From Peptococcaceae bacterium UBA5318 (GTDB lineage: Bacteria > Bacillota > Peptococcia > DRI-13 > UBA5318): a stretch of 64,000 bases of DNA. Both the position numbers and the translations under genes were made by a program. Below, one piece after another: positions 28,353-30,515 of the stretch. The first letter of the stretch is position 1; each line of letters begins with the position of its first letter. The DNA is taken from contig DHRG01000013.1 of the NCBI GenBank assembly GCA_002408285.1, positions 4,536-68,535 on the forward strand, written 5' to 3'. Below the pieces are notes generated by a model, which made no database searches, was not told where the DNA came from, and was given only the letters and a program-made list of their open reading frames with translations.

Positions 28353-30515
28353 ATGAAACTGCTTTTGCGTAACATGCTATCCTTTTTTGGCGAGAACAAA
28401 GGGCATACGGCGTTATATGCCCTGTCCGTTGTCCTCATTGTCATTCTTGAGTGTATTTTGCCTCTTGTGTTAAAGATTGTAGTGGATTATATCATCATTC
28501 CCCGGGACTATGGCTTGTTTTCCCTCTTGATCCTGGGCTTTGCGGTGACCGTCGTTTTGTACGCCTCCTCCATGCTGCTGATGAGTTCTGTGTACGCCAA
28601 GCTCTATGCCAAGGTGTTCCTGCGTTACAACCATCGCCTCTTTCATAAAATACAGCAGCTTTCCATGTCCTATTTTTTCCAGACGCGTCCCGGCCAGGTC
28701 CTTTCCCATTTCACTTCCGATCTGGAGAGCATTGAAACCCTTTATAAAATCGCCGTCCCCGCCTGTATTTTTGCCGTCCTGAAGATCATTGCCAATACCG
28801 TCATCGCCTTCGCCTTGGACTGGCGGCTTGCGGCCCTGTCCATGATCGGCCTGGCCGTGACCTTGCTGGGGCCCTATCCCCTGGATAAGAAAGCGCCCCC
28901 CGTCAACAACTCCCTGAAAAACAGCAAAGCCCAGCTGCTGTCGGTGAGCGAGGAAAGCATCTCCGCCCAGCTGGTCGTCAAATCCTTTAATATGCAGAAA
29001 ATCATGGGAGAGCTTTTCTCAAAAAAGGCTCGGGAGCGGGCCAGGCATGACGCCCGGGCCTTTTGGATCGGCGATATGATTCAGAATTCACGCCTGATCT
29101 TTTTCACAATCTCCGCCTTGGCCCTGCTGGGGGCCGGCTCCTATTTGGCCATGCAAGGCAGCATTACCGTGGGGACGGTGATCGCCTTCTTTTCTCTTTT
29201 TTCCGCCTTCGGAACCTCCATCGGCTATCTGGCTGCCAACCTGCGCGTCCTTGCCGACAGCGGCGTTTCCGTCCGGCGCCTGGCGGATTTTCTGGATACG
29301 GCCCCCGCCGTCTGTGACGCGGACAACGCCGTGGAGGTCAGCGCCTTTCACACAGGGATCGCCTTTGAAGACGTCCTCTTCGGGTACAAGGAAAACGAGC
29401 CCACCCTGAAAAACATCAGCCTCTTTATCCCCCAAGGCTCCCTGGTCGCCTTTGTGGGCCCCAGCGGCTCCGGTAAATCTTCCGTTTTAAACCTGCTCCT
29501 GCGGTTTTATGACGTACAAAAGGGCGGCATCACCATCGACGGGCATGATGTGCGCAGGATTCGGCAGCATTCCCTCCACCGCCTGATCAATATTGTTTTG
29601 CAGGAAAACTTTCTTTTTAATACGACCATCTTGGAAAATCTCCGCTATGCCAAACCGGAAGCCGGCATGGAGGAAATCGTCGCCGCCGCAAAAGCCGCGG
29701 AAATTCATGATTTTATCAGCGGCCTGCCGGACGGCTACCAGACCATGGTTGGAGAAAGGGGCAACCAGCTCTCCGGCGGCCAGCGACAACGGCTGGCCCT
29801 GGCCAGGGCCTTGCTGTGCCGGCCGGCCATCCTGCTCCTGGATGAGGCCACCTCGGCCTTGGACCCCAGGACCGAAGCGTCCATCAATCAAACCTTGCTG
29901 CAGGTAGCCAGGGAGCGGACGTTAATCTCGGTAACGCACCGGCTCTCTTCAGTCAAGGATTACGACCGGATCATCGTCATGGATCAGGGCAGGGTAGCCG
30001 AATGCGGCAGCCACCAGGAATTGTTGCAGAAACAGGGCATCTACAGCAGCCTCTGGGAAAAACAGTACGGCTTTGTGGTGGATGACAGCATGCAATATGC
30101 CGAAATCACGGCGGAAAGGCTGGCGAAACTGCCTCTTTTCCAGCGGCTGGATCACAAGCTTCTCCAAATGATGGCCGATCTCTTCGTTTCCGAGCAGTTT
30201 GCCGCCGAGCGCACCCTCATTTATGAAGGAGATTACGGGGACAAGTTTTATGTCCTCGTCCGCGGACAGGTTGCCGTTTTCAAGAAGCTGGCGGACGGCA
30301 CGGAAAAAAGGCTGGCCGTGCTCCAGGACGGCGACCATTTCGGAGAAATCGCCCTCCTCAGGAACATTCCCCGAACCGCCACGGTGCGGGCCCGTACCCC
30401 GTGCCTTGTACTGTCCCTGCAGCGGGAGAAATTTTCCAGAGTACTGGAAACTGCGCCTGCCGTCAAAAAAGCCCTGGAAGAGGAAGCGGAACTCCGTTTC
30501 CAGGGGCAATCGTGA
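28353..30515 (+). CDS. ABC exporter (fused TMD-NBD, MsbA/lipid-exporter-like) with a C-terminal cyclic-nucleotide-binding (CAP_ED) domain
   Basis: A six-helix TMD is followed by Walker A (GPSGSGKSS), the signature LSGGQRQRLALARAL and Walker B (ILLLDEATSALD). The C-terminal roughly 130 aa are FQRLDHKLL...IYEGDYGDKFYVLVRGQVAVF...LQDGDHFGEIALLRNIPRTATVRA, a canonical phosphate-binding cassette. Confidence 0.85.
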   Translation: MKLLLRNMLSFFGENKGHTALYALSVVLIVILECILPLVLKIVVDYIIIPRDYGLFSLLILGFAVTVVLYASSMLLMSSVYAKLYAKVFLRYNHRLFHKIQQLSMSYFFQTRPGQVLSHFTSDLESIETLYKIAVPACIFAVLKIIANTVIAFALDWRLAALSMIGLAVTLLGPYPLDKKAPPVNNSLKNSKAQLLSVSEESISAQLVVKSFNMQKIMGELFSKKARERARHDARAFWIGDMIQNSRLIFFTISALALLGAGSYLAMQGSITVGTVIAFFSLFSAFGTSIGYLAANLRVLADSGVSVRRLADFLDTAPAVCDADNAVEVSAFHTGIAFEDVLFGYKENEPTLKNISLFIPQGSLVAFVGPSGSGKSSVLNLLLRFYDVQKGGITIDGHDVRRIRQHSLHRLINIVLQENFLFNTTILENLRYAKPEAGMEEIVAAAKAAEIHDFISGLPDGYQTMVGERGNQLSGGQRQRLALARALLCRPAILLLDEATSALDPRTEASINQTLLQVARERTLISVTHRLSSVKDYDRIIVMDQGRVAECGSHQELLQKQGIYSSLWEKQYGFVVDDSMQYAEITAERLAKLPLFQRLDHKLLQMMADLFVSEQFAAERTLIYEGDYGDKFYVLVRGQVAVFKKLADGTEKRLAVLQDGDHFGEIALLRNIPRTATVRARTPCLVLSLQREKFSRVLETAPAVKKALEEEAELRFQGQS

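What the first reader, a model, noticed from the sequence alone, without database searches (positions are those of the whole stretch)
28353..30515. MsbA-like ABC exporter fused to a cyclic-nucleotide-binding domain, embedded between the two lipid operons
Seen in sequence.
- The protein is a full TMD-NBD half-transporter with intact Walker A, signature and Walker B motifs.
- A C-terminal CAP_ED-type domain follows, with a canonical phosphate-binding cassette (FGEIALLRNIPRTATVRA).
- The gene diverges from the cdsA operon and converges on the PKS operon.

Inference. This may be a lipid flippase or exporter whose activity is gated by cAMP or cGMP. That would link export of the island's lipid product to the CHASE2 cyclase encoded 13 kb away. 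ABC-cNMP fusions exist in databases, but I know of none with a defined function.
Basis: partly seen in the sequence, partly recalled or inferred. Interest (0 to 1): 0.75.

Follow-up and report, generated by a model that had tools for sequence, protein, structure and literature searches.

The report
ABC exporter with cAMP-sensor domain
The gene really encodes a membrane export pump fused to a cyclic-nucleotide sensor, but it belongs to a widespread, uncharacterised bacterial family; its role as a lipid pump rests only on where it sits, and its link to the nearby cyclase is not conserved.

Summary
Window 28353-30515 (+) encodes a 720-aa half-transporter: six-helix ABC exporter domain, consensus nucleotide-binding domain, conserved linker, and a C-terminal PKA/PKG-type cyclic-nucleotide-binding domain with a canonical phosphate-binding cassette.

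- **Family.** The architecture is not rare. Nearly all of the best 120 homologues, from many phyla, carry it. The cassette's Phe, Gly and Arg are invariant in 58 diverse members. No member has a solved structure or a described function.
- **"MsbA-like".** This holds only at fold level; no NCBIfam equivalog cut-off is reached.
- **Lipid link, for.** The gene sits in the same slot, 84-85% identical, in three versions of a very rare lipid island and shares the island's GC3. It stands back-to-back with the cdsA promoter, next to a 17-bp motif that also precedes the PKS operon and an AraC gene.
- **Lipid link, against.** Its closest non-island relatives (45-47% identity) lie in unrelated contexts. 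The gene is frameshifted in Pelotomaculum terephthalicicum.
- **Cyclase link.** The CHASE2 enzyme looks like an adenylate cyclase, so cAMP is the likely ligand. But its four-gene block is missing from at least one relative's island and occurs elsewhere as an independent module.

Verdict: a new member of a known, unstudied family. The lipid-flippase role is plausible but unproven.

The parts
28353..30515 (+). Gene for the 720-aa ABC exporter-CNBD fusion (alternative starts: TTG 28341 or 28350)
   Evidence: ORF list. Pfam ABC_membrane, ABC_tran and cNMP_binding. AF2 model with pLDDT 88.3 and pTM 0.75. The ATG is conserved in relatives.
28353..29312 (+). Transmembrane domain with six long helices (type IV / ABCB-like exporter fold)
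   Evidence: Pfam PF00664 at residues 22-288. AF2 helices H16-48 through H273-314. Foldseek matches to TM287/288, Sav1866, MsbA, PCAT1 and Atm1, with TM-score 0.8-0.94 relative to the target.
29313..30068 (+). Nucleotide-binding domain with all consensus motifs: Walker A 29457-29480, signature 29769-29792, Walker B/D-loop 29829-29864, H-loop 29931-29945
   Evidence: Pfam PF00005. Motif positions. The motifs are invariant across 58 homologues.
30069..30152 (+). Conserved linker between the nucleotide-binding domain and the CNBD (beta-hairpin 574-585; G573 invariant, F574 and L590 in at least 90%)
   Evidence: Alignment A1. AF2 secondary structure.
30153..30512 (+). C-terminal cyclic-nucleotide-binding domain; phosphate-binding cassette at 30339-30392
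   Evidence: Pfam PF00027, E 3.3e-24. The best PDB relatives are PKA-R and PKG CNBDs. F663, G664 and R674 are invariant; E665 and A676 occur in at least 90%. dN/dS is 0.11 against the JGI orthologue.
28287..28316 (+). Sigma-70-like promoter TTGACA-18-TAAAAT, 37 bp upstream of the ATG
   Evidence: Consensus scan, 11 of 12 matches. The -35 is invariant and the -10 is conserved in two relatives. Function is inferred.
28214..28230 (+). 17-bp motif TCATTGACAATTTTGCG in the cdsA/ABC divergent intergenic region
   Evidence: Three exact copies in the window against 0 expected. The motif is conserved at the same three positions in the relatives.
36578..36594 (+). Second copy of the 17-bp motif, 63 bp upstream of the KS-AT-ACP gene start
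7237..7253 (+). Third copy of the 17-bp motif, 58 bp upstream of the AraC-family gene 6253-7179
   Evidence: Pfam identifies the AraC genes.
30519..30547 (.). GC-rich hairpin (11 pairs) between the convergent ABC and KR-DH genes; a likely bidirectional terminator
   Evidence: It lies in a 45-bp insertion specific to the window.
13188..15032 (-). CHASE2 + class III cyclase, predicted adenylate cyclase; a possible but non-conserved source of the ligand
   Evidence: Pfam. Lys in LDKFIGD and Thr in MDYTAIGD, aligned to CyaB 3r5g and contrasted with Cya2 2w01. Absent from relatives.
27130..27972 (-). cdsA, first gene of the divergent phospholipid/ether-lipid operon (context)
   Evidence: Pfam CTP_transf_1. 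Syntenic in L002, L092/L093 and L094.
30571..36515 (-). PfaA-like split PKS: KS-AT-ACP at 32916-36515 and KR-DH at 30571-32904, convergent with the ABC gene (context)
   Evidence: Pfam and NCBIfam TIGR02813.

Best explanation
The gene encodes a homodimeric type IV ABC exporter (one transmembrane domain plus one nucleotide-binding domain per chain). Each nucleotide-binding domain continues through a short, conserved linker into a PKA-type cyclic-nucleotide-binding domain (CNBD).

**Shown**
- The architecture.
- Intact catalytic motifs at both ATP sites.
- A canonical, family-wide conserved phosphate-binding cassette.
- Purifying selection on the sensor domain.

**Inferred**
- cAMP (less likely cGMP) binds the two C-terminal domains beneath the nucleotide-binding domains. 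Binding changes how readily those domains close, and so switches ATPase and transport activity. This follows the logic of C-terminal regulatory domains on MalK, MetN, ModC or OpuA.
- The protein belongs to a large, phylogenetically broad, functionally unstudied family. That family looks like a general 'second-messenger-gated exporter' module recruited to different jobs.

**More weakly inferred**
- In this genome and its close relatives the module has been recruited into a very rare lipid island. The island combines a PfaA/PfaD-type synthase, a DH-acyltransferase, CdsA, PssA, Psd, a PlsA-like ether-lipid enzyme and a B12 radical-SAM enzyme.
- Its most likely job there is to move the island's unusual phosphatidylethanolamine-type lipid, or a precursor, across or out of the cytoplasmic membrane.
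- The neighbouring CHASE2 adenylate cyclase may supply cAMP in this genome. It is not an obligatory partner.
For: **Architecture and motifs**
-.
- AF2 model with pLDDT 88.3.
- Exporter fold matches in the PDB.

**Homodimer**
- No second half-transporter gene is present in any island version, and both ATP sites are consensus.

**Sensor domain**
- Its closest solved relatives are PKA-R and PKG domains.
- Cassette residues F, G and R are invariant, and E occurs in at least 90%, across 58 members at about 40% identity.
- The linker is conserved.
- dN/dS is 0.18 overall and 0.11 for the CNBD.

**Family breadth**
- About 112 of the top 120 homologues carry PF00027.
- About 60 of the best 150 representatives of 50%-identity clusters match the NBD-end/linker/CNBD stretch at the C-terminus of 700-770-aa proteins.

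**Island membership**
- The orthologue sits in the same slot in JGI12104 (85% identity, intact), P. terephthalicicum JT and JGI11944.
- It is the most conserved island protein: 85% against 73-82% for the others.
- Its GC3 is 0.71, like the island's 0.64-0.74 and unlike the core genes' 0.37-0.53.
- It shares a divergent intergenic region with cdsA. That region holds a 17-bp motif which also precedes the PKS operon and an AraC gene, conserved in relatives.
- The closest non-island homologue, P0003, is followed 45 bp later by an LPG_synthase_C gene, a lipid aminoacylation domain.

**cAMP as ligand**
- The cyclase has Lys/Thr specificity residues and intact metal and transition-state residues.
- It lies 30 bp downstream of, and co-oriented with, the PfaD gene. 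No predicted terminator occurs before the hairpin at 8528-8571.
Against: - No substrate can be read from the sequence. The NCBIfam models for HlyB, MsbA-related, TAP, NdvA, MsbA and HepA all score 338-362 bits, far below their cut-offs.
- Seven non-island family members sit in unrelated, mutually different neighbourhoods: a Nif11 leader peptide with a radical-SAM enzyme, SET-domain proteins, or nothing notable. None has a nearby cyclase.
- The gene has its own promoter and is on the opposite strand to every lipid gene.
- In P. terephthalicicum JT and an independent metagenome contig, a 2-bp insertion between the signature and Walker B motifs breaks the frame. Most island genes there remain intact.
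- The cyclase block is absent from the JGI relative and has no close orthologue anywhere.
- A homologous cNMP-type domain in HetC binds ppGpp rather than cAMP (PMC10986499).
- The three island versions are close relatives (dS about 0.46), so shared gene order is only modest evidence.
Confidence: 0.4

Rival explanations
1. A cAMP-regulated general exporter (drug, metabolite or other amphipathic substrate) with no functional tie to the lipid island. It travels with the island only because it lies between the two operons in a recently shared ancestor.
For: - Family members occur as solitary, self-contained genes in many unrelated contexts.
- The gene has its own promoter and, in this genome, its own terminator, and is on the opposite strand.
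- It is frameshifted in P. terephthalicicum while the lipid genes persist.
- The three islands are close relatives, with dS about 0.46.
Against: - It has island-like GC3.
- It is the most conserved protein of the island.
- It kept its position while the flanks changed: the cyclase block indel, the PPTase deletion and a MITE-like insertion.
- It is back-to-back with the cdsA promoter next to the shared 17-bp motif.
Confidence: 0.33
2. One reading: the CHASE2 cyclase 13 kb away is the dedicated signal source, and its cAMP gates export of the island lipid.
For: - The cyclase is a predicted adenylate cyclase.
- It lies directly downstream of and co-oriented with the lipid operon. No terminator is predicted before 8528-8571.
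- Its block has island-like GC3.
- CHASE2 cyclases lie within 10 kb of PlsA homologues in two other genomes, L020 and L085.
- The MBL-fold neighbour weakly resembles a cyclic-nucleotide phosphodiesterase: 44 bits against a cut-off of 400.
Against: - The whole block (window 8374-14995) is missing from the collinear JGI island, where the PfaD gene abuts the AraC genes.
- No orthologue above 56% identity exists in 5.8 billion proteins, although the other island genes have 73-85% orthologues.
- CHASE2-cyclase + FecR + NHL/CuAO_N1 (with an MBL gene in one case) is an autonomous module elsewhere, without an ABC-CNBD gene or lipid genes.
- The 17-bp island motif is absent from the block.
Confidence: 0.15
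3. The C-terminal domain no longer senses cAMP or cGMP. It binds another ligand (for example ppGpp, as in HetC) or serves only as a dimerisation or structural module.
For: - The N-terminal cNMP-type domain of HetC binds ppGpp (PMC10986499).
- Kannan et al. 2007 noted a variable cassette arginine in their CNB-ATPase/ABC class (PMC2246266).
Against: - In this family the cassette arginine is invariant, and Gly-Glu is conserved (invariant Gly, Glu in at least 90%).
- The nearest solved relatives are true cAMP/cGMP-binding domains of PKA and PKG, at E about 1e-17 per domain.
- The cassette is almost identical to the 'Channel_Bact' class consensus GEIALLTGGPRTATVRA.
Confidence: 0.08
4. A peptide (RiPP or bacteriocin) exporter, by analogy with NHLP/Nif11-associated ABC transporters that carry cNMP-like domains.
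For: - The close homologue P0004 lies 766 bp downstream of a Nif11-type leader peptide gene and next to a radical-SAM gene.
- The NHLP transporter models give 281-328 bits.
- The island's radical-SAM protein weakly hits RiPP methyltransferase models.
Against: - Neither the window nor the relatives show a precursor peptide or a C39 peptidase domain.
- The NHLP models fall far below their cut-offs of 709-853 bits, and their cNMP-like domain is N-terminal.
- The island's radical-SAM gene is translationally coupled between plsA-like and pssA.
Confidence: 0.04

Closest known systems
Uncharacterised TMD-NBD-CNBD exporters annotated 'ABC transporter transmembrane domain-containing protein' / 'ATP-binding cassette subfamily B' (e.g. 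Fusibacter sp. 3D3, Paenibacillus spp., P. terephthalicicum WP_240084395)
   Same: They share the domain order, a length of about 710-760 aa, the conserved linker and the canonical phosphate-binding cassette. Identity is 40-47% across phyla and 84-85% in the island orthologues.
   Different: Nothing structural differs. Only the genomic setting does: the lipid island is unique to this small clade. No member has a described function.
Bacterial type IV ABC exporters with solved structures (TM287/288, Sav1866, MsbA, Atm1, PCAT1 core, TmrAB)
   Same: The six-helix transmembrane domain plus nucleotide-binding domain fold matches at 27-32% identity, with TM-score 0.8-0.94 relative to the target.
   Different: None has a domain after the nucleotide-binding domain; all alignments stop near residue 580. 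The protein is not an MsbA orthologue (343 bits against a cut-off of 602).
PKA regulatory-subunit and PKG cyclic-nucleotide-binding domains; bacterial CNBD-gated channels (SthK, and the 'Channel_Bact' class of Kannan et al. 2007)
   Same: The beta-barrel with FGE...PRTATVRA cassette and the flanking helices match, at E 1e-17 to 1e-14. The cassette is nearly identical to the Channel_Bact consensus.
   Different: The output domain is an ABC ATPase rather than a kinase-inhibitory segment or a channel gate. Ligand preference is unknown.
HetC of Nostoc PCC 7120 and NHLP-type bacteriocin ABC transporters (TIGR03796/03797)
   Same: These are ABC exporters that carry a cNMP-type regulatory domain. For HetC, that domain is required for function (PMC10986499).
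   Different: Their cNMP-like domain is N-terminal. HetC also has a C39 peptidase, and its domain binds ppGpp. The substrate is a peptide. The NCBIfam cut-offs are not reached (281-328 bits against 709-853).
ABC transporters regulated through C-terminal domains on the ATPase (MalK, MetN, ModC, OpuA-CBS)
   Same: The regulatory logic is the same: a ligand-binding domain appended to the C-terminus of the nucleotide-binding domain controls closure of the dimer. This rests on my own knowledge and was not tested here.
   Different: Those are importers with different regulatory folds. Here the transporter is an exporter with a CNBD.

Membership tests
Type IV (ABCB-like) ABC exporter half-transporter | ABC_membrane six-helix transmembrane domain followed by an ABC_tran nucleotide-binding domain on one chain | tested here: met
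   Pfam gives 100.6 bits and 116 bits, both well above cut-off. AF2 predicts six long helices. Foldseek probability is 1.00 to TM287/288, Sav1866 and MsbA.
Type IV (ABCB-like) ABC exporter half-transporter | Catalytically competent nucleotide-binding domain: Walker A, Q-loop, signature, Walker B glutamate, H-loop | tested here: met
   GPSGSGKS, Q417, LSGGQ, ILLLDE and H529 are present. They are invariant in alignment A1.
Cyclic-nucleotide-binding domain (PF00027 / CAP_ED) | Profile match above the curated threshold | tested here: met
   85.1 bits against a cut-off of 27.5, E 3.3e-24.
Cyclic-nucleotide-binding domain (PF00027 / CAP_ED) | Phosphate-binding cassette with Gly-Glu and Arg-(Thr/Ser)-Ala | tested here: met
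   The cassette is FGEIALLRNIPRTATVRA. F663, G664 and R674 are invariant; E665 and A676 occur in at least 90% of 58 homologues.
Cyclic-nucleotide-binding domain (PF00027 / CAP_ED) | Actual binding of cAMP or cGMP, and which one | not testable with these tools
   Only indirect evidence is available. The neighbouring cyclase has adenylate-type Lys/Thr residues. A Thr after the cassette Arg occurs in both cAMP- and cGMP-binding domains (my own knowledge).
MsbA (lipid A flippase) equivalog | Score above the NCBIfam equivalog cut-off | tested here: not met
   TIGR02203 scores 342.8 against 602. NF008381 scores 304.5 against 867. HlyB, TAP and NdvA models score as high or higher.
Type I secretion ABC (HlyB subfamily) | Subfamily score above cut-off, plus an adjacent membrane-fusion protein | tested here: not met
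   TIGR01846 scores 362 against 725.6. No HlyD-type gene is present in the window or the relatives.
NHLP/Nif11 bacteriocin ABC transporter with cNMP-like domain (TIGR03797) / HetC-type PCAT | N-terminal cNMP-like and/or C39 peptidase domain; a precursor peptide nearby | tested here: not met
   The score is 280.7 against 709.4. The domain is C-terminal. No peptidase hit was found and no precursor gene is present in the island.
Pycsar-type defence (cyclase + CNBD effector) | Adjacent cyclase-effector pair; effector with a TIR or transmembrane killing domain | tested here: not met
   PADLOC hits reflect only generic CNBD (51 bits) and class III cyclase (104 bits) homology. The genes are 13 kb apart and the pairing is not conserved. 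The cyclase has a CHASE2 sensor and purine-type Lys/Thr residues.
Component of the PfaA/PfaD-PlsA-CdsA lipid island | Conserved presence and position in all versions of the island | tested here: met
   The gene lies between cdsA and KR-DH in the window, L093 (85% identity, intact), and L002 and L094 (84-89% identity but frameshifted). All are close relatives, so this is weak evidence.
Component of the PfaA/PfaD-PlsA-CdsA lipid island | Co-regulation with the lipid operons | tested here: inconclusive
   The 17-bp motif is shared by the cdsA/ABC, PKS and AraC promoter regions and is conserved in relatives. Its spacing (motif-N23-TAcAAT on the - strand) fits the minus-strand promoters. For the ABC promoter it lies about 57 bp upstream of the -35.

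The most novel reading that the evidence does not exclude
This would be the first example of a second-messenger-gated lipid translocase. cAMP, made here by an envelope-sensing CHASE2 cyclase co-transcribed with the lipid operon, would switch on an ABC flippase. That flippase would deliver a rare PUFA-synthase-derived ether/PE lipid to the outer leaflet, giving post-translational control of membrane composition or asymmetry in an anaerobic Bacillota.
Probability: 0.12. Interest if true: 0.8.

Novelty: new member of a known kind. Interest (0 to 1): 0.45.

Why it matters
Direct control of an ABC exporter by cAMP has not been shown for any member of this widespread family. The strict conservation of the cAMP-contact residues suggests that the control is real. 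This island copy is one of the few family members with an informative neighbourhood: a complete and very rare specialised-phospholipid pathway. It therefore offers a concrete candidate substrate against which to test both the gating and the transport function. If the lipid link fails, the gene remains a good representative for working out what cAMP-gated exporters do in bacteria.

Tried and rejected
- **PlsA anchor.** I used the PlsA-like protein to find other copies of the island in 185,000 genomes. This returned 80 ordinary clostridial PlsA loci at 49-55% identity. None carried the other island genes.
- **Plasmid search.** It found no true fusions, only generic ABC exporters and one unfused ABC + Crp pair.
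- **afdb50 fold search.** The library was not available.
- **PDB searches.** Sequence and fold searches found no exporter with a C-terminal CNBD.
- **Literature.** Searches for a characterised ABC-CNBD exporter found only HetC (N-terminal domain, ppGpp) and the 2007 classification.
- **Defence-system reading (Pycsar).** Considered and rejected.
- **Cyclase block boundaries.** No flanking direct repeats mark the 6.6-kb block as a transposition. Gain or loss therefore cannot be decided.
- **Regulatory RNA.** Rfam found no regulatory RNA upstream of the gene.
- **Substrate class.** It could not be inferred from NCBIfam scores.
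Full report
**1. The observation**

An ORF runs from 28341 (TTG) or 28353 (ATG) to 30515 on the + strand. Pfam finds three domains:
- ABC_membrane, residues 22-288, E 1.7e-28.
- ABC_tran, residues 352-501, E 2.5e-33.
- cNMP_binding, residues 614-700, E 3.3e-24, 85 bits against a cut-off of 27.5.

All catalytic motifs are consensus: Walker A GPSGSGKS at 369-376, Q417, LSGGQRQR at 473-480, ILLLDEATSALD at 493-504 and H529.

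The gene diverges from cdsA (27130-27972, - strand) and converges on a KR-DH gene (30571-32904, - strand). The CHASE2 cyclase lies at 13188-15032. The factual part of the finding is therefore correct.

**2. Anatomy**

An AlphaFold2 model built on 58 homologues is confident, with mean pLDDT 88.3 and pTM 0.75. It shows:
- six long transmembrane helices and a nucleotide-binding domain;
- a short beta-hairpin linker at 574-585;
- a beta-barrel with flanking helices at 587-719.

Foldseek against the PDB returns only classical type IV exporters: TM287/288, Sav1866, MsbA, Atm1, PCAT1 core, HlyB and TmrAB. Each aligns over about 570 residues, so no solved exporter has anything after the nucleotide-binding domain.

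On its own, the C-terminal 149 residues match PKA regulatory-subunit and PKG domains best, at E about 1e-17 per domain. HCN and SthK channel domains follow. This is the true cAMP/cGMP-binding class, not the degenerate CRP/FNR class.

The gene has its own near-consensus promoter, TTGACA-18-TAAAAT at 28287-28316. The -35 and the ATG are conserved in relatives. An 11-bp GC-rich hairpin follows the stop codon; it lies in a window-specific 45-bp insertion. No second half-transporter gene is present, so a homodimer with two consensus ATP sites and two sensor domains is expected. That is an inference.

**3. The family**

The architecture is common. Apart from the P. terephthalicicum fragment and seven roughly 1200-aa non-CNBD ABC proteins, the best 120 homologues carry PF00027 at the C-terminus. 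They share 38-47% identity with the query (the self-match aside). They come from Bacillota, Gemmatimonadota, Deltaproteobacteria, Verrucomicrobiota, Binatia and others.

I also searched with only the NBD-end/linker/CNBD stretch against 1.84 billion cluster representatives. About 60 of the best 150 hits were single full-length matches at the C-terminus of 700-770-aa proteins.

In a 58-member alignment:
- the cassette residues F663, G664 and R674 are invariant;
- E665, A667, L668 and A676 occur in at least 90%;
- the linker residue G573 is invariant, and F574 and L590 occur in at least 90%.

A conserved linker argues for a fixed mechanical connection rather than a floppy tether.

Kannan et al. 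2007 already listed a class of CNB domains attached to ATPase and ABC-like membrane regions (PMC2246266). HetC, a peptidase-containing exporter, has an N-terminal cNMP-type domain that binds ppGpp (PMC10986499). I found no paper describing the function of a TMD-NBD-CNBD exporter.

**4. Is it MsbA-like?**

Only in fold. These NCBIfam models all score 338-362 bits, against cut-offs of 600-880:
- HlyB: 362
- MsbA-related: 355
- TAP: 349
- cyanophycin-associated: 349
- NdvA: 347
- MsbA: 343
- HepA: 338

The sequence gives no hint of substrate class.

**5. The island and whether the transporter belongs to it**

All neighbours from 8638 to 27972 lie on the - strand. In transcription order they are:
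- cdsA
- a 1419-aa PlsA-like protein (two BcrAD_BadFG domains plus DUF2229). This is the plasmalogen synthase / glycerol ester reductase type described by Jackson 2021 and Sahonero-Canavesi 2022 (PMC13159169).
- a B12-type radical-SAM enzyme
- a CDP-alcohol phosphatidyltransferase
- Psd
- an 827-aa DH-acyltransferase
- a PPTase remnant
- a PfaD enoyl reductase
- the CHASE2 cyclase
- an MBL-fold protein
- an NHL protein
- a FecR-domain protein

On the other side of the ABC gene sits a split PfaA-like synthase, KS-AT-ACP followed by KR-DH.

The island is compositionally foreign. Its GC3 is 0.64-0.74, against 0.37-0.53 for gyrA, gyrB, dnaA, serS and ackA. The ABC gene, at GC3 0.71, matches the island.

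The island is very rare. The DH-acyltransferase has only five homologues in 5.8 billion proteins. None of 80 clostridial PlsA loci carries the other island genes.

I found three other copies:
- P. terephthalicicum JT (L002);
- JGI metagenome contig JGI12104J13512_1000391 (L092/L093);
- JGI metagenome contig JGI11944J13513_1003512 (L094).

In all of them the ABC-CNBD gene sits in the same slot, diverging from cdsA. The JGI12104 orthologue is intact and 85% identical. That makes it the most conserved island protein; the others range from 73 to 82%. dN/dS is 0.18 overall and 0.11 for the CNBD.

A 17-bp motif, TCATTGACRATTTTGCG, occurs exactly three times in the window against an expectation of 0:
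- in the cdsA/ABC intergenic region (28214-28230);
- 63 bp upstream of the KS-AT-ACP gene (36578-36594);
- 58 bp upstream of an AraC-family gene (7237-7253).

It is conserved at the same three places in the relatives. On the - strand each copy is followed, 23 nt after its TTGTCA hexamer, by TACAAT or TAAAAT. That looks like an activator site abutting the promoters of the cdsA operon, the PKS operon and araC. The two AraC genes bordering the island in both genomes are the obvious candidate regulators (inference). The ABC promoter stands back-to-back with this cdsA promoter. Shared control is therefore plausible but not shown.

**6. Evidence against a dedicated lipid role**

Seven non-island family members have unrelated neighbourhoods:
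- P0003 is followed by an LPG_synthase_C gene. This is a second, independent hint towards lipids.
- P0004 follows a Nif11 leader peptide gene and a radical-SAM gene.
- P0005, P0013 and P0051 have nothing telling nearby.
- P0055 and P0101 each abut a homologous SET-domain protein.
- None has a cyclase nearby.

In the P. terephthalicicum type (L002, and independently L094), a 2-bp insertion between the signature and Walker B motifs shifts the frame. Either the transporter is dispensable there or that island is decaying. Its PlsA also lacks residues 427-664.

The three island versions are close relatives, with dS about 0.46. Shared gene order is therefore only modest evidence.

**7. The cyclase link**

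The catalytic domain aligns with CyaB (3r5g) and Cya2 (2w01). Three features point to an active class IIIb adenylate cyclase, and so to cAMP as the ligand:
- Lys in LDKFIGD, where the guanylate cyclase Cya2 has Glu;
- Thr in MDYTAIGD;
- intact metal-binding Asp residues and the Asn/Arg pair.

In this genome the cyclase starts 30 bp after the pfaD stop, on the same strand. No terminator-like hairpin is predicted until 8528-8571, after the FecR gene. It may therefore be read through from the lipid operon.

Against a conserved circuit:
- Nucleotide alignment shows that window 8374-14995, the whole FecR-NHL-MBL-cyclase block, is replaced by 76 bp in the JGI12104 contig. There pfaD directly abuts the two AraC genes.
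- The cyclase has no orthologue above 56% identity in the protein database, although every other island gene has 73-85% orthologues.
- CHASE2-cyclase + FecR + NHL/CuAO_N1 (with an MBL-fold gene nearby in L112) recurs as a self-contained module in other Clostridia, without lipid genes or an ABC-CNBD gene.

The cyclase is thus a lineage-specific neighbour and not a conserved partner. Gain or loss cannot be decided: no flanking repeats were found, and the block has island-like GC3.

**8. Verdict**

The protein is a real and probably functional cAMP-sensing ABC exporter. It belongs to a large, unstudied family.
- The gating mechanism is strongly suggested by residue conservation but is untested.
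- The lipid-flippase assignment is the best available guess for this copy. I put it at about 0.35-0.4, and at 0.33 that the exporter is unrelated to the island.
- The dedicated cyclase circuit is possible in this genome only, at about 0.15.

A specialist would find this moderately interesting rather than surprising. Its value is that this copy supplies a concrete candidate substrate for a family that has none.

Noticed in passing
window 7237-7253, 28214-28230, 36578-36594 (also L092 843-859 and 15341-15357; L093 9867-9883 and 18167-18183; L002 9867-9883): The 17-bp motif TCATTGACRATTTTGCG occurs three times in the window against 0 expected. It lies upstream of the cdsA operon/ABC gene, the PKS operon and an AraC gene, and is conserved in relatives. 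On the - strand each copy is followed, 23 nt after its TTGTCA hexamer, by TACAAT or TAAAAT. It is probably the island's common operator, perhaps for the flanking AraC regulators.
   Followed up: partly
window 7255-7354, 12042-12251, 28050-28182: A palindromic, MITE/REP-like intergenic element with a 31-bp core, CTTCAGTGGGAGTTTTAACTCCCCACTGAAG, occurs in three exact copies. It is absent from the relatives' loci. One copy lies between the cdsA promoter region and cdsA.
   Followed up: partly
window 8374-14995 against L092 14302-14377: The 6.6-kb block of FecR, NHL, MBL and CHASE2-cyclase genes is an indel relative to the JGI relative. The same kind of module (CHASE2-cyclase + FecR + NHL/CuAO_N1, with an MBL-fold gene in one case) is conserved in other Clostridia (L111, L112).
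   Followed up: yes
window 16669-17046 (-): This is a remnant of the island's phosphopantetheinyl transferase. Residues about 59-185 of the 257-aa JGI orthologue, a 396-bp stretch, are deleted. The PKS here lacks its dedicated PPTase.
   Followed up: partly
L002 10001-12165 and L094 7867-9731: In the P. terephthalicicum-type island the ABC-CNBD gene carries a 2-bp insertion between the signature and Walker B motifs, seen in two independent assemblies. The PlsA-like gene there is split and lacks residues 427-664.
   Followed up: partly
window 17120-19603 (-): The 827-aa DH-like + acyltransferase protein has only five homologues (E<=1e-10) in 5.8 billion proteins. The lipid island as a whole seems more unusual than the transporter: PfaA/PfaD-type synthase, CdsA, PssA, Psd, PlsA-like and B12 radical-SAM genes.
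   Followed up: partly
L020 and L085: CHASE2-cyclase homologues (34-36% identity) lie within 10 kb of PlsA-like genes in two unrelated genomes, a Bacillota MAG and Senegalimassilia. This may be a recurrent link between the cyclase and ether-lipid genes.
   Followed up: no
L113 7420-8004; L011 10194-10796: A 195-200-aa SET-domain protein lies directly beside the ABC-CNBD gene in two distant family members. The two copies are 44% identical to each other. This may be a partner for a subclade.
   Followed up: partly
L003 2523-3437; L004 8989-9234: The closest non-island homologues sit next to an LPG_synthase_C gene (P0003) and a Nif11-type leader peptide with a radical-SAM gene (P0004). These hints about substrate conflict.
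   Followed up: no
window 43641-55161; GC-skew turn near 50-53 kb: The window spans the chromosomal origin region: gyrA, gyrB, recF, dnaN and dnaA on the - strand, and yidC and jag on the + strand. The GC3-rich island lies about 15 kb from dnaA, and tRNA-Ser (38895-38984) lies near its right edge.
   Followed up: partly
window 37342-37427 (-); 42080-42276 (-): Rfam reports a skipping-rope sRNA (65 bits) between the island and tRNA-Ser. It also reports a T-box leader (127 bits) upstream of the serA-serS genes.
   Followed up: no
window 12238-13092 (-): The MBL-fold protein next to the cyclase hits the NCBIfam 'cyclic nucleotide-degrading phosphodiesterase' model weakly (44 bits against a cut-off of 400). 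It could be the module's phosphodiesterase.
   Followed up: no
window 8528-8571 (-): A 13-bp GC-rich hairpin followed by ATTTTTGT lies 67 nt after the FecR stop. It is the first convincing terminator downstream of the long minus-strand array that starts at cdsA.
   Followed up: partly
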